Of a stretch of DNA of 64,000 nt, positions 400 through 15,552 are shown piece after piece. The notes under the pieces are model-generated. The model was not told where the DNA came from. It searched no databases and saw only the letters and a program-made list of their open reading frames with translations. Source of the DNA: Nemertoderma westbladi (taxonomy: Eukaryota > Animalia > Xenacoelomorpha); the NCBI GenBank assembly GCA_032718475.1, contig JAUCBJ010003790.1, forward strand, positions 62,001-126,000, read 5' to 3'. Every line of letters starts with the position of its first letter. Position 1 is the stretch's first letter. A program made the translations under genes and the position numbers.

Positions 400-3300
400 C
401 TAAATATTACAATTATTAATATTTACTAAAATTAAATATATGTAATATAGTTATAAACTATCCAACCTTTAATTTAGTTACATATTTTTCTCACTAACCT
501 TTAGTTTAGTTAACATATTATTTTTCTCACCAACCTTTAGTTTAGATACATATTTTTCTCACTAACATATTATTTTTCTCACTAACCTTTAGTTTAGTTA
601 CATATTTTTCTCACTCACCTTTAGTTTAGTTACATATTTGTCACACTAACATTTAGTTTAGTTAACATATTATTTTTCTCACTAACCATTAGTTTAGTTA
701 CATATTTTTCTCACTCCCCTTTAGTTTAGTTACATATTTTTCTCATTAACCTTTAGTTTAGTTAACATATTAATTTTCTCACTCACCTTTAGTTTAGTTA
801 CATATTTTTCTCACTAACCTTTAGTTTAGTTACATATTTTTCTCACTCAGCTGTAGTTTAGTTACATATATTTCTCATTAACCTTTAGTTTAGTTAACAT
901 ATTATTTTTCTCACTAACCATTAGTTTAGTTACATATTTTTCTCACTCACCTTGAGTTTAGTTACATATTTTTCTCACTAAAATTTAGTTTAGTTAACAT
1001 ATTATTTTTCTCACAACCTTTAGTTTAGTTACATATTTTTCTCACTCACCTTTAGTTTAGTTACATATTTTTCTCACTCAGCTGTAGTTTAGTTACATAT
1101 TTTTCTCATTAACCTTTAGTTTAGTTAACATATTATTTTTCTCACTAACCATTAGTTTAGTTACATATTTTTCTCACTCACCTTGAGTTTAGTTACATAT
1201 TTTTCTCACTAAAATTTAGTTTAGTTAACATATTATTTTTCTCACTCACCTTTAGTTTAGATACATATTTTTCTCACTCACCTTTAGTTTAGTTAACATG
1301 TTTTTCTCACTCACCTTTAGTTTAGTTACATATTTTTCTCACTCACCTTTAGTTTAGTTACATATTTTTCTCACCAACCTTTAGTTTAGTTACATATTTT
1401 TCTCACTCACCTTTAGTTTAGTTAACATGTTTTTCTCACTCACCTTTAGTTTAGTTACATATTTTTCTCACTCACCTTTAGTTTAGTTACATATTTTTCT
1501 CACTAACCTTTAGTTTAGTTAACATATTATTTTTCTCACTTACCTTTAGTTTAGTTACATATTTTTCTCACTCACCTTTAGTTTAGTTACATATTTTTCT
1601 CACTAACCTTTAGTTTAGTTAACATATTATTTTTCTCACGAACCTTTAATTTAGTTACATATTTTTCTCATTCACCTTTAGTTTAGTTAACATATTATTT
1701 TTCTCACTAACCATTAGTTTAGTTACATATTTTTCTCACTCACCTTTAGTTTGGTTAACATATTATTTTTCTCACGAACCTTTAATTTAGTTACATATTT
1801 TTCTCACTCACCTTTAGTTTAGTTAACATATTATTTTTCTCACTAACCATTAGTTTAGTTATATATTTTTCTCACTCCCCTTTAGTTTAGTTACATATTT
1901 TTCTCACTAACCTTTAGTTTAGTTAACATATTATTTTTCTCACTAACCTTTAGTTTAGTTACATATTTTTCTCACTAAAATTTAGTTTAGTTAACATATT
2001 ATTTTTCTCACTCACCTTTAGTTTAGTTACATATTTTTCTCACTCACCTTTAGTTTAGTTACATATTTGTCACACTAACATTTAGTTTAGTTAACATATT
2101 ATTTTTCTCACTAACCATTAGTTTAGTTACATATTTTTCTCACTCCCCTTTAGTTTAGTTACATATTTTTCTCATTAACCTTTAGTTTAGTTAACATATT
2201 AATTTTCTCACTCACCTTTAGTTTAGTTACATATTTTTCTCACTAACCTTTAGTTTAGTTACATATTTTTCTCACTCAGCTGTAGTTTAGTTACATATTT
2301 TTCTCATTAACCTTTAGTTTAGTTAACATATTATTTTTCTCACTAACCATTAGTTTAGTTACATATTTTTCTCACTCACCTTGAGTTTAGTTACATATTT
2401 TTCTCACTAAAATTTAGTTTAGTTAACATATTATTTATCTCACAACCTTTAGTTTAGTTACATATTTTTCTCACTCACCTTTAGTTTAGTTACATATTTT
2501 TCTCACTCAGCTGTAGTTTAGTTACATATTTTTCTCATTAACCTTTAGTTTAGTTAACATATTATTTTTCTCACTAACCATTAGTTTAGTTACATATTTT
2601 TCTCACTCACCTTGAGTTTAGTTACATATTTTTCTCACTAAAATTTAGTTTAGTTAACATATTATTTTTCTCACTCACCTTTAGTTTAGATACATATTTT
2701 TCTCACTCACCTTTAGTTTAGTTAACATGTTTTTCTCACTCACCTTTAGTTTAGTTACATATTTTTCTCACTCACCTTTAGTTTAGTTACATATTTTTCT
2801 CACCAACCTTTAGTTTAGTTACATATTTTTCTCACTCACCTTTAGTTTAGTTAACATGTTTTTCTCACTCACCTTTAGTTTAGTTACATATTTTTCTCAC
2901 TCACCTTTAGTTTAGTTACATATTTTTCTCACTAACCTTTAGTTTAGTTAACATATTATTTTTCTCACTTACCTTTAGTTTAGTTACATATTTTTCTCCC
3001 TCACCTTTAGTTTGGTTAACATATTATTTTTCTCACGAACCTTTAATTTAGTTACATATTTTTCTCATTCACCTTTAGTTTAGTTAACATATTATTTTTC
3101 TCACTAACCATTAGTTTAGTTACATATTTTTCTCACTCACCTTTAGTTTGGTTAACATATTATTTTTCTCACGAACCTTTAATTTAGTTACATATTTTTC
3201 TCACTCACCTTTAGTTTAGTTAACATATTATTTTTCTCACTAACCATTAGTTTAGTTATATATTTTTCTCACTCCCCTTTAGTTTAGTTACATATTTTTC

Positions 3301-6300
3301 TCACTAACCTTTAGTTTAGTTAACATATTATTTTTCTCACTAACCTTTAGTTTAGTTACATATTTTTCTCACTAAAATTTAGTTTAGTTAACATATTATT
3401 TTTCTCACTCACCTTTAGTTTAGTTACATATTTTTCTCACTAAAATTTAGTTTAGTTAACATATTATTTTTCTCACTAACCTTTAGTTTAGTTACATATT
3501 TTTCTCACTCCCCTTTAGTTTAGTTACATATTTTTCTCACTCACCTTTAGTTTAGTTAACATATTATTTTTCTCACTAACCATTAGTTTAGTTACATATT
3601 TTTCTCACTCACCTTTAGTTTGGTTAACATATTATTTTTCTCACTAACCATTAGTTTAGTTACATATTTTTCTCACTCACCTTTAGTTTGGTTAACATAT
3701 TATTTTTCTCACGAACCTTTAATTTAGTTACATATTTTTCTCACTCACCTTTAGTTTGGTTAACATATTATTTTTCTCACGAACCTTTAATTTAGTTACA
3801 TATTTTTCTCACTCACCTTTAGTTTAGTTAACATATTATTTTTCTCACTCACCTTTAGTTTAGTTACATATTTTTCTCATTAACCTTTAGTTTAGTTACA
3901 TATTTTTCTCACTCACCTTTAGTTTAGTTAACATATTATTTTTCTCACTAACCATTAGTTTAGTTATATATTTTTCTCACTCCCCTTTAGTTTAGTTACA
4001 TATTTTTCTCACTAACCTTTAGTTTAGTTAACATATTATTTTTCTCACTAACCTTTAGTTTAGTTACATATTTTTCTCACTAAAATTTAGTTTAGTTAAC
4101 ATATTATTTTTCTCACTCACCTTTAGTTTAGTTACATATTTTTCTCACTAAAATTTAGTTTAGTTAACATATTATTTTTCTCACTAACCTTTAGTTTAGT
4201 TACATATTTTTCTCACTCCCCTTTAGTTTAGTTACATATTTTTCTCACTCACCTTTAGTTTAGTTAACATATTATTTTTCTCACTAACCATTAGTTTAGT
4301 TATATATTTTTCTCACTCCCCTTTAGTTTAGTTACATATTTTTCTCACTAACCTTTAGTTTAATTAACATATTATTTTTCTCACTAACCTTTAGTTTAGT
4401 TACATATTTTTCTCACTAAAATTTAGTTTAGTTAACATATTATTTTTCTCACACACCTTTAGTTTAGTTACATATTTTTCTCACTAAAATTTAGTTTAGT
4501 TAACATATTATTTTTCTCACTAACCTTTAGTTTAGTTACATATTTTTCTCACTCCCCTTTAGTTTAGTTACATATTTTTCTCACTCACCTTTAGTTTAGT
4601 TAACATATTATTTTTCTCACTAACCATTAGTTTAGTTATATATTTTTCTCACTCCCCTTTAGTTTAGTTACATATTTTTCTCACTCACCTTTAGTTTAGT
4701 TAACATATTATTTTTCTCACTAACCATTAGTTTAGTTATATATTTTTCTCACTCCCCTTTAGTTTAGTTACATATTTTTCTCACTAACCTTTAGTTTAAT
4801 TAACATATTATTTTTCTCACTAACCTTTAGTTTAGTTACATATTTTTCTCACTAAAATTTAGTTTAGTTAACATATTATTTTTCTCACACACCTTTAGTT
4901 TAGTTACATATTTTTCTCACTAAAATTTAGTTTAGTTAACATATTATTTTTCTCACTAACCTTTAGTTTAGTTACATATTTTTCTCACTCACCTTTAGTT
5001 TAGTTAACATATTATTTTTCTCACTAACCATTAGTTTAGTTATATATTTTTCTCACTCCCCTTTAGTTTAGTTACATATTTTTCTCACTAACCTTTAGTT
5101 TAGTTAACATATTATTTTTCTCACTAACCTTTAGTTTAGTTACATATTTTTCTCACTAAAATTTAGTTTAGTTAACATATTATTTTTCTCACTCACCTTT
5201 AGTTTAGTTACATATTTTTCTCCCTCACCTTTAGTTTCGTTAACATATTATTTTTCTCACGAACCTTTAATTTAGTTACATATTTTTCTCACTCACCTTT
5301 AGTTTAGTTAACATATTATTTTTCTCACTAACCATTAGTTTAGTTACATATTTTTCTCACTCACCTTCAGTTTGGTTAACATATTATTTTTCTCACTAAC
5401 CATTAGTTTAGTTACATATTTTTCTCACTCACCTTTAGTTTGGTTAACATATTATTTTTCTCACGAACCTTTAATTTAGTTACATATTTTTCTCACTCAC
5501 CTTTAGTTTGGTTAACATATTATTTTTCTCACGAACCTTTAATTTAGTTACATATTTTTCTCACTCACCTTTAGTTTAGTTAACATATTATTTTTCTCAC
5601 TAACCTTTAGTTTAGTTACATATTTTTCTCACTAAAATTTAGTTTAGTTAACATATTATTTTTCTCACTCACCTTTAGTTTAGTTACATATTTTTTTCAT
5701 TAACCTTTAGTTTAGTTACATATTTTTCTCACTCACCTTTAGTTTAGTTAACATATTATTTTTCTCACTAACCATTAGTTTAGTTATATATTTTTCTCAC
5801 TCCCCTTTAGTTTAGTTACATATTTTTCTCACTAACCTTTAGTTTAGTTAACATATTATTTTTCTCACTAACCTTTAGTTTAGTTACATATTTTTCTCAC
5901 TAAAATTTAGTTTAGTTAACATATTATTTTTCTCACTCACCTTTAGTTTAGTTACATATTTTTCTCACTAAAATTTAGTTTAGTTAACATATTATTTTTC
6001 TCACTCACCTTTAGTTTAGTTAACATATTATTTTTCTCACTAACCATTAGTTTAGTTATATATTTTTCTCACTCCCCTTTAGTTTAGTTACATATTTTTC
6101 TCACTAACCTTTAGTTTAATTAACATATTATTTTTCTCACTAACCTTTAGTTTAGTTACATATTTTTCTCACTAAAATTTAGTTTAGTTAACATATTATT
6201 TTTCTCACACACCTTTAGTTTAGTTACATATTTTTCTCACTAAAATTTAGTTTAGTTAACATATTATTTTTCTCACTAACCTTTAGTTTAGTTACATATT

Positions 6301-15381: not shown

Positions 15382-15552
15382 CTTTAGTTTAGTTAACATA
15401 TTTTTCTCACTGTCTTCTGAAACACTTTTTGACAACAACAATCGCTTAGCCAAATGTTGTTTATAATATCGTTCGAATATATCCTTGTCTTGTAAAAATC
15501 GAAACAGCACCATGGCCTTGTCAAGTACATTCTCTAACTCATCATCCTGCAT
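15382..15552 (-). CDS. CUL3: Cullin-3 internal exon (equivalent to human exon 9), 171 nt
   Basis: AATCCCAG|ATG...[69 protein letters not shown], 57 aa, cullin homology domain. Confidence 0.96.

What the first reader, a model, noticed from the sequence alone, without database searches (positions are those of the whole stretch)
464..15411. 15-kb intron made of ~400 tandem copies of the exon-9 end plus 5' splice site
Seen: the sense unit AGTGAGAAAAATATG(T)TAACTAAACTAAAG|GT(G/T) is the last 30 nt of the exon ([10 protein letters not shown]) plus the donor. Many copies read AAG|GTGAGT, a closer U1 match than the real AAG|GTTAGT, and the array runs to ~65 nt from the next acceptor. Inference: the spliceosome must choose the first, weaker donor over hundreds of decoys, or remove the intron stepwise. 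The array could also act as a U1 sink or protect against premature polyadenylation. Known: skipping of the equivalent 171-nt exon 9 in human CUL3 causes familial hyperkalemic hypertension, so splicing here matters functionally.
Basis: partly seen in the sequence, partly recalled or inferred. Interest (0 to 1): 0.85.

Follow-up and report, generated by a model that had tools for sequence, protein, structure and literature searches.

The report
Giant splice-donor repeat in CUL3 intron
In an animal's CUL3 gene, the last 30 bases of one exon plus its splice signal are repeated about 400 times to fill a 15-kb intron; the cell likely still cuts at the first copy and likely destroys wrongly cut messages, so this is an oversized example of a repeat type already known from lancelets and a few human genes.

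Summary
CUL3 (minus strand; five exons, 278 codons, no stop) has a 14,982-nt intron 9. It is filled by about 400 copies of the exon's last 30 nt plus the donor; 137 of 406 decoys are predicted to pair with U1 better than the real site. This is a 'mirage'/F7-type minisatellite whose unit spans an exon-intron border, about 16 times larger than the largest published donor array I found (25 pseudo-sites). It likely grew from a 67-nt intron. Both arrays need the exon-proximal copy, which points to exon definition. Every decoy product in both arrays carries a premature stop, so nonsense-mediated decay likely removes errors. A role against early polyadenylation is unsupported: intron 8 has 227 AATAAA and no U1-like site. 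Stepwise removal is neither shown nor excluded. Splicing here is untested for lack of RNA data. The scan's unreviewed notes report the same build in many other genes of this genome and in another genome, so it is not special to CUL3.

The parts
15382..15552 (-). CUL3 exon 9 (171 nt, 57 codons); its last 30 nt (15411-15382) are the first repeat unit
15376..15384 (-). Exon-proximal donor AAG|GTTAGT, the only one that gives an open frame; bases +4 to +6 are the first three bases of the second unit
464..15411 (-). Donor minisatellite: about 405 units of mostly 32 or 36 nt, 75 unit types, patchy higher-order repeats
15361..15363 (-). In-frame TAA at intron nt 19-21, made by a 1-nt deletion in unit 2; it lies before the first decoy, so every decoy-donor product carries it
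15285..15349 (-). Nearest decoys: +32 AAG|GTGAAT (-6.9), +64 AAG|GTTGGT (-7.3), +96 AAG|GTGAGT (-11.5, first stronger one, would give a 267-nt exon)
400..466 (-). Unique 67-nt AT-rich tail that starts with the last donor AAG|GTTGGA (-5.4) and ends at the acceptor; likely the ancestral intron (inferred)
292..399 (-). CUL3 exon 10 (108 nt), human residues 460 onward
10602..11748 (-). 1,147-nt insert in the array with a 10-nt subterminal inverted repeat, a GC hairpin and a CTAG end, between A and T; Helitron-like by recalled hallmarks
14480..14622 (-). About 143-nt insert, open in one frame; resembles a LINE C-terminal fragment (recalled resemblance, not searched)
24054..24230 (-). CUL3 exon 8 (177 nt)
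15696..24055 (-). Intron 8 37-nt array; it stretches the intron upstream of exon 9 to 8,501 nt and holds 227 sense AATAAA
60732..60880 (-). CUL3 exon 7 (149 nt)
60853..62853 (-). Mirror acceptor minisatellite: 48 acceptors, units of 42, 40 or 41 nt made of the intron-6 end plus the exon-7 start; all 47 upstream acceptors give a stop
63520..63748 (-). CUL3 exon 6 (229 nt), Pfam Cullin E 5.8e-17

Best explanation
This is a minisatellite whose unit spans the CUL3 exon 9 donor and has grown to about 400 copies; it is likely a tolerated by-product of repeat expansion, with the spliceosome likely choosing the exon-proximal donor by exon definition and nonsense-mediated decay likely removing the stop-containing products of any decoy. 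Shown by sequence: the unit, the copy number, the open frame through the first donor only, the stop before the first decoy, and the mirror acceptor array. Inferred history: a 33-nt in-frame duplication (30 exon bases plus GTT) arose at a 67-nt intron. The new first junction read GTTAGT and paired with U1 better than the ancestral GTTGGA (-7.5 against -5.4). Use of either donor then kept the frame, so the step was survivable. Unequal exchange and slippage expanded the array, and 32- and 36-nt variants spread. Inferred splicing: both flanking introns are now long (8.5 and 15 kb), so splice sites pair across the exon. The only two competitors that keep exon 9 under 250 nt are slightly weaker than the real donor, and the first stronger one gives 267 nt.
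For: The unit equals the exon end plus donor far beyond chance. The frame is open over 278 codons at 74% identity to mollusc and annelid CUL3. Unique remainders of introns 6, 7, 8 and 9 are only 61, 360, 143 and 67 nt, each intron carrying its own array, so the expansion is general and not aimed at exon 9. In 28 of 80 metagenome loci with an intron at this position, 0 repeat the exon end; the 20 measurable introns are 74-1528 nt, with off-consensus donors common. The acceptor array needs its last copy and the donor array its first; only cross-exon proximity explains both. PMC9225289 (abstract and Results part 1): between long introns the sites closest across the exon are preferred, and alternatives over 250 nt are less driven by strength. 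PMC1557585: in F7 only the most upstream donor is used, even against pseudo-sites with consensus value 91. PMC3087553 and PMC3902484 (passages): lancelet mirages do not appear to disturb splicing. All 406 decoy-donor and 47 decoy-acceptor products carry a stop.
Against: Splicing at this locus was not observed. In F7, perfect CAG/gtgagt pseudo-sites took about 70-90% of splicing, and 126 copies here are AAG|GTGAGT, one base away. In PMC9225289 the stronger donor dominated in 86% of human events. In 6-16 and CBS two pseudo-sites are used as well. These rules come from human cells and may not hold in this animal. Signs of selection are weak. Both nearest decoys being weaker has a chance of about 0.25 (203 of 406 are weaker or lack GT). 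A stop in unit 2 had a prior of about 0.6 (157 of 399 units are in frame and stop-free). Enrichment of amplified variants in the donor 9-mer fell from P=0.002 to P=0.075 once linked changes were merged. The commonest variant (+3 T to G, 170 copies) strengthens decoys. The last four donors lie 67-187 nt from the acceptor, within reach of intron definition. The acceptor unit was probably founded at 41 nt, so the in-frame-founder step does not apply to it.
Confidence: 0.68

Rival explanations
1. The intron is removed stepwise. The real donor first joins an internal AAG that is followed by GT, which regenerates a donor, and so on in several jumps to exon 10.
For: 263 internal AAG|GT sites would regenerate the exon's AAG|GT junction exactly. 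This gene accepts an AAG acceptor at exon 8. The real intron-9 acceptor has only 0.50 pyrimidine in -20..-5. In the intron-6 array none of 9 substitutions falls in the 14 intron-derived bases (2.75 expected, P=0.033, boundary chosen after seeing the data), which hints that internal acceptors may be kept there.
Against: The internal AAG|GT sites have 0.47 pyrimidine on average and 0.50 at most, scattered in A-rich sequence; the five real acceptors have 0.50-0.81, with T at 0.50-0.62. The better-looking internal acceptors (TTTTAG, 46 sites) do not regenerate a donor; 43 of them precede a 27-nt pseudo-exon that starts with TGA. A 15-kb intron needs no stepwise path (general knowledge).
Confidence: 0.14
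2. The array is a leaky poison switch. Decoy donors take a sizeable share of splicing, the stop-bearing products are degraded, and copy number or U1 level sets CUL3 dosage.
For: 137 of 406 decoys are stronger than the real site. Near-perfect pseudo-sites competed in F7, and CBS and 6-16 use pseudo-sites. Every decoy product has a stop.
Against: The array is absent in 28 of 28 other loci with this intron, so no conserved regulation is visible. All introns of the gene are expanded alike. The nearest competitors are weak.
Confidence: 0.1
3. The array was selected as a U1 landing field, either a sink or protection against premature cleavage and polyadenylation of the long pre-mRNA.
For: Intron 9 has 217 U1-like sites, 14.5 per kb, and 41 ATTAAA hexamers, most of them inside donor-bearing units.
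Against: Intron 9 has a single AATAAA, inside an insert. Intron 8 has 227 AATAAA and no U1-like site, and the 36.5-kb intron 7 has 1 per kb. The array is itself the only reason the intron is long (67-nt remainder). 82 of 406 copies have lost GT, and donor positions are not better conserved than the rest of the unit.
Confidence: 0.04
4. The locus is a dead CUL3 copy, or the array length is an assembly artefact, so no splice choice is made.
For: Expression was not observed, and the rest of the genome could not be searched for a second CUL3. Only exons 6-10 lie in the window.
Against: There is no stop or frameshift in 278 codons, all junctions read here are GT or AG, and conserved blocks are kept. 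The array has 75 unit types, the longest exact internal repeat is 565 nt of about 13.6 kb, and two inserts break units cleanly; this is not the pattern of a duplicated read.
Confidence: 0.04

Closest known systems
Human F7 intron 7 37-bp VNTR, with the 6-16, CBS intron 13, LMNB2 and PDGF intron 4 minisatellites it cites (PMC1557585; seen: abstract, introduction, sections 9 and 12, passages; the original papers on the other genes not seen)
   Same: The first monomer spans the exon-intron border, so the donor is repeated down the intron. Unit size is similar (37 nt against 32-36 nt). The most upstream donor is the authentic one.
   Different: F7 has 5-9 copies and 6-16 has 25 pseudo-sites, against about 400 here. 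F7 pseudo-sites equal the real site, whereas a third here are predicted stronger. The unit here is mostly exon (30 of 33 nt; F7 4 of 37). The array here makes up nearly the whole intron.
Lancelet 'mirage' minisatellites: globins BflGb6 and BflGb9, Adh3, troponin C, PGBD5 (PMC3087553 and PMC3902484; seen: passages only, supplements not read)
   Same: Tandem copies of an exon-intron boundary at either the 5' or the 3' end. Many but not all units keep the splice signal. Units of 10-160 bp. Reported not to disturb splicing.
   Different: BflGb6 has 3-6 units (copy numbers for Adh3 not seen), against about 400 donors and 48 acceptors in one gene here. No lancelet is named among the 120 listed of 1163 homologues and the best identity over exons 6-10 is 74%, so this is probably another lineage (inference; no tree built).
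Internal tandem repeats at exon-intron boundaries of human segmental-duplication genes (PMC2812944; seen: outline and passages)
   Same: Minisatellite expansion at a boundary creates extra splice sites.
   Different: There the repeats often make new introns or alternative transcripts in young paralogues. Here the intron position is old and shared with other animals, and all alternative products carry a stop.
Recursive splicing at AG|GT ratchet points (recalled; no paper read)
   Same: Hundreds of AAG|GT junctions that would regenerate a donor.
   Different: No T-rich tract and no YAG at these sites. They are derived from the exon end by duplication.

Membership tests
Exon-boundary minisatellite (mirage / F7 type) | Tandem unit spans an authentic exon-intron boundary of the host gene | tested here: met
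   Unit = last 30 nt of exon 9 + 3 intron nt; 400 matches in the intron, 0 elsewhere, 0 for 50 shuffles
Exon-boundary minisatellite (mirage / F7 type) | Splice signal repeated in many but not all units | tested here: met
   325 of 407 keep GT; 48 of 48 acceptors keep AG in intron 6 (the anchor allowed 2 substitutions)
Exon-boundary minisatellite (mirage / F7 type) | Minisatellite unit length (10-160 bp in the published cases) | tested here: met
   32-37 nt in 396 of 407 units; range from PMC3087553
Exon-boundary minisatellite (mirage / F7 type) | Mature mRNA uses the authentic (exon-proximal) site | not testable with these tools
   No reads could be laid on this locus; see Tried and rejected
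Exon-boundary minisatellite (mirage / F7 type) | Length polymorphism or somatic instability | not testable with these tools
   One haplotype only; higher-order repeat blocks imply past unequal exchange
Recursive splicing sites | Polypyrimidine tract and YAG directly before GT | tested here: not met
   263 AAG|GT sites, pyrimidine 0.47 mean and 0.50 maximum, A at -3; real acceptors 0.50-0.81. The real intron-9 acceptor is itself at 0.50, so the gap is modest
Recursive splicing sites | Intermediates in nascent RNA | not testable with these tools
   No nascent RNA data
U1 telescripting element | U1 sites placed where intronic poly(A) signals are dense | tested here: not met
   Intron 9: 1 AATAAA, 41 ATTAAA, 217 U1-like sites; intron 8: 227 AATAAA, 0 U1-like sites
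Cullin-3 | Best match to CUL3 above other cullins, exon by exon | tested here: met
   Exon 8: 77.7 bits against 26.8 for CUL4A; exon 9: 80.4 against 63.9; exon 10: 43.3 against 24.9
Pseudogene | Stops, frameshifts or broken splice sites | tested here: not met
   None in exons 6-10, 278 codons; the other exons lie outside the window

The most novel reading that the evidence does not exclude
This animal has turned short introns into splice-site satellites across its genome and copes by a strict shortest-exon rule that overrides site strength, stronger than anything measured in human cells. CUL3, with 137 stronger donors behind exon 9 and 47 acceptors ahead of exon 7 (46 of them identical to the real one), would be a natural record of a switch from intron to exon definition driven by repeat growth, in which internal sites may also serve as stepping stones.
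Probability: 0.2. Interest if true: 0.7.

Novelty: new member of a known kind. Interest (0 to 1): 0.36.

Why it matters
As a single locus it extends a known oddity by more than tenfold in copy number and gives a clean natural test of splice-site choice. One gene carries a donor array and an acceptor array. Only the copy next to the exon gives protein in each case, and a third of the donor decoys are predicted stronger than the real one. Junction counts with and without decay blocked would separate position from strength, a question so far studied with five to nine copies in minigenes. If the array grew from a 67-nt intron, it also shows how a duplication across a splice site can pass selection. 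It is unlikely to be a new regulatory device, and the human disease link adds nothing.

Tried and rejected
Expression: the look-up of sequencing runs on 15412-15690, kind rna, gave no RNA holder listed. This is no evidence either way, and no reads were laid. No whole genome is held for this window, so paralogues and genome-wide counts could not be checked. An exact 28-nt unit pattern found 0 matches in metagenome contigs. RNA structure masking the decoys: folding of 15480-15200 gave z=0.08, with 102 of 200 shuffles as stable; rejected. Selection against strong decoys: amplified variants were enriched in the donor 9-mer (15 of 27 alleles in 2 or more copies, 7.7 expected, P=0.002; all 42 alleles P=0.17), but after merging linked changes it was 11 of 25 events, 7.3 expected, P=0.075 (one of the 25 is an alignment artefact of the 1-nt deletion); not claimed. 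Strong decoys are spread evenly along the array, 7-13 per kb outside the insert. 'Both founder units were multiples of three': rejected, because the acceptor unit closest to the exon sequence is 41 nt. Taxon: best matches are mollusc and annelid at 74% among the 120 listed of 1163 hits; no tree was built and the group is not named. Literature: eight searches listed no report of a splice-site array with hundreds of copies. The library lacks most subscription papers, the original Adh3, 6-16 and CBS reports were not seen, and supplements of PMC3087553 were not read. MaxEntScan could not be run.
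Full report
Observation. The window holds exons 6-10 of a CUL3 gene on the minus strand (human numbering): 63748-63520, 60880-60732, 24230-24054, 15552-15382 and 399-292. Joined by coordinates they read open for 278 codons, with GT donors and AG acceptors. Exons 8, 9 and 10 each match Cullin-3 well above other cullins. The joined frame is 74% identical to mollusc and annelid CUL3, the best among the 120 proteins listed of 1163 found. Intron 9 is 14,982 nt. The last 30 nt of exon 9 recur 400 times in it at up to 5 edits, never in the rest of the window, and never for 50 shuffled units in the first 4 kb.

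Anatomy of the donor array. The founder unit is 33 nt: 30 exon bases plus GTT. Of 407 parsed units, 231 are 32 nt (a 1-nt deletion) and 148 are 36 nt (a 3-nt insertion). There are 75 types in patchy higher-order blocks, and the longest exact internal repeat is 565 nt. No downstream unit equals the exon copy. 325 of 407 donor positions keep GT. By duplex energy with the recalled U1 5' end the real donor scores -7.5 kcal/mol; of 406 decoys 137 are stronger, 66 equal, 121 weaker and 82 lack GT. The two nearest decoys (+32, +64) score -6.9 and -7.3, and the first stronger one is at +96. Read-through meets TAA at intron nt 19-21, before the first decoy, so every decoy-donor product ends six residues after exon 9. 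Two inserts interrupt the array, 1,147 nt and about 143 nt.

Origin (inferred). After the last donor, AAG|GTTGGA (-5.4), come 67 unique AT-rich bases ending at the acceptor. This reads as the ancestral intron. In that case the first donor's +4 to +6 bases are the start of the second unit, so the duplication made the new first site stronger than the old one. The 33-nt unit is also stop-free in frame, so either choice would at first have given protein. An ancestral intron of this size is plausible: 28 of 80 metagenome loci have an intron at the same place, the 20 measurable ones are 74-1528 nt, and none of the 28 repeats its exon end. For eight of the 28 only 51-1046 nt downstream were available, and short-read contigs tend to break at arrays.

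Every intron here carries its own array; without arrays and inserts, introns 6, 7, 8 and 9 shrink to 61, 360, 143 and 67 nt. Intron 6 holds the mirror case: 48 acceptors in units of 40-42 nt made of the intron end and the start of exon 7. Forty-six of the 47 upstream ones equal the real acceptor over their last 16 nt, and all 47 lead to a stop. The donor array needs its first copy and the acceptor array its last. A simple first-come rule along the transcript cannot give both; pairing across the exon can.

Mechanism. PMC9225289 (abstract and first part of Results) reports that between long introns the splice sites closest across the exon are preferred, and between short introns those closest across the intron. 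It also reports that strength usually wins among alternatives up to 250 nt and counts for less beyond. Exon 9 is 171 nt; its competitors give 203 and 235 nt (both weaker) and then 267 nt (stronger). [quoted passage not shown] I therefore take exon-proximal selection, backed by decay of stop-bearing errors, as most likely (0.68). Neither step was observed here. Against it: perfect CAG/gtgagt sites took 70-90% of F7 splicing, 126 copies here differ from that by one base, and these rules are from human cells. Tests for selection were weak: chance about 0.25 for two weak neighbours, about 0.6 for a stop in unit 2, and P=0.075 for variant enrichment at the donor after merging linked changes.

Rivals. 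Stepwise removal (0.14): 263 AAG|GT sites would regenerate a donor, but they sit in A-rich sequence (pyrimidine 0.47, against 0.50-0.81 for five real acceptors). Of 46 TTTTAG sites, 43 open a 27-nt pseudo-exon starting with TGA. A poison switch tuned by copy number (0.10) is possible but has no conserved counterpart. A U1 sink or shield against early polyadenylation (0.04) fits badly: intron 9 has 1 AATAAA, while intron 8 has 227 and no U1-like site. A pseudogene or assembly artefact (0.04) is unlikely. Local RNA structure is no better than shuffles.

Comparison with what is known. The build is that of the F7, 6-16, CBS, LMNB2 and PDGF minisatellites (5 to 25 copies) and of the lancelet 'mirages', which occur at both exon ends and are reported not to disturb splicing (passages). 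PMC2812944 (passages) describes boundary repeats in human duplicated genes. The sequence criteria for this class are met; the splicing and polymorphism criteria could not be tested. Eight literature searches listed nothing with hundreds of copies, in a library that lacks most subscription papers. Human exon 9 is residues 403-459 and its skipping causes familial hyperkalemic hypertension (search listing). That is an in-frame deletion, not the error predicted here.

Earlier notes of this scan. Unreviewed AI notes describe the same build downstream in this CUL3 gene, in many other genes of this genome with up to about 2,100 copies, and in a mussel genome. Several say that assembled RNA uses the exon-proximal copy, and two suggest some use of internal copies. 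I did not check those loci. I took the term 'mirage' from them and verified it in the two papers.

Verdict. Real, unusually large, and a member of a known kind. Interest 0.36 for this locus. The stronger story would be genome-wide (a position rule overriding strength across hundreds of introns), and it needs RNA data and the genome, neither of which I had.

Noticed in passing
window 60853-62853 (minus): Acceptor-side array of 48 splice acceptors before CUL3 exon 7. The last 14 intron-derived bases carry 0 of 9 substitutions (2.75 expected, P=0.033, post hoc), and the nearest upstream unit is 40 nt, so its use shifts the frame.
   Followed up: yes
window 15696-24055 (minus): The intron 8 37-nt array starts at about +3 of the exon 8 donor and carries 227 sense-strand AATAAA, each followed about 10 nt later by a T/G-rich stretch, with no U1-like site in the intron. 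How transcription avoids early cleavage here is unexplained.
   Followed up: partly
window 28007-36100 (plus): BEL/Pao LTR retrotransposon inside the intron 7 array: 453-nt LTRs 99.3% identical, long open gag-like and pol frames (DUF1759, Peptidase_A17, integrase), so a recent insertion.
   Followed up: partly
window about 50780-58230 (minus): LINE-type element in intron 7: a 1,065-aa endonuclease plus reverse transcriptase frame, and upstream frames with a Pro/Ser/Gly-rich 57-nt repeat and a Ulp1-like peptidase C48 match (E 1.8e-4); one stop codon separates the 629-aa and 576-aa frames.
   Followed up: partly
window 10602-11748 (minus): Non-coding insert with a 10-nt subterminal inverted repeat, a GC hairpin and a CTAG end, sitting between A and T; Helitron-like by recalled hallmarks; single copy in the window.
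   Followed up: partly
window 14480-14622 (minus): Short insert open in one frame, with a motif that recalls the C-terminus of RTE/L2-type LINE proteins (recalled, not searched).
   Followed up: no
window about 42455-45405: A 2.9-kb insert in the intron 7 array whose two ends look like inverted repeats with ACTGTA-type microsatellites, and with nested GACA/CTGT repeats inside; probably a non-autonomous DNA transposon.
   Followed up: no
window 1-267, 24562-60702, 62872-63476, 63790-63911: Four more private minisatellites (27, 31, 31 and about 37 nt). The first three begin 24-45 nt after a donor and the last ends about 40 nt before an acceptor, so arrays crowd the exon borders in every intron.
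   Followed up: partly
window 467-15381, 46 TTTTAG sites: 43 of 46 internal TTTTAG sites are followed 27 nt later by a donor-like site, forming identical pseudo-microexons that begin with TGA.
   Followed up: partly
P0001 (aligned): An NCBI cullin protein model from the moth Phthorimaea operculella contains repeated copies of the exon-9-encoded segment ending in the same SEKNM-KLK motif; it may be a gene-model trace of a similar duplication, or an assembly error.
   Followed up: no
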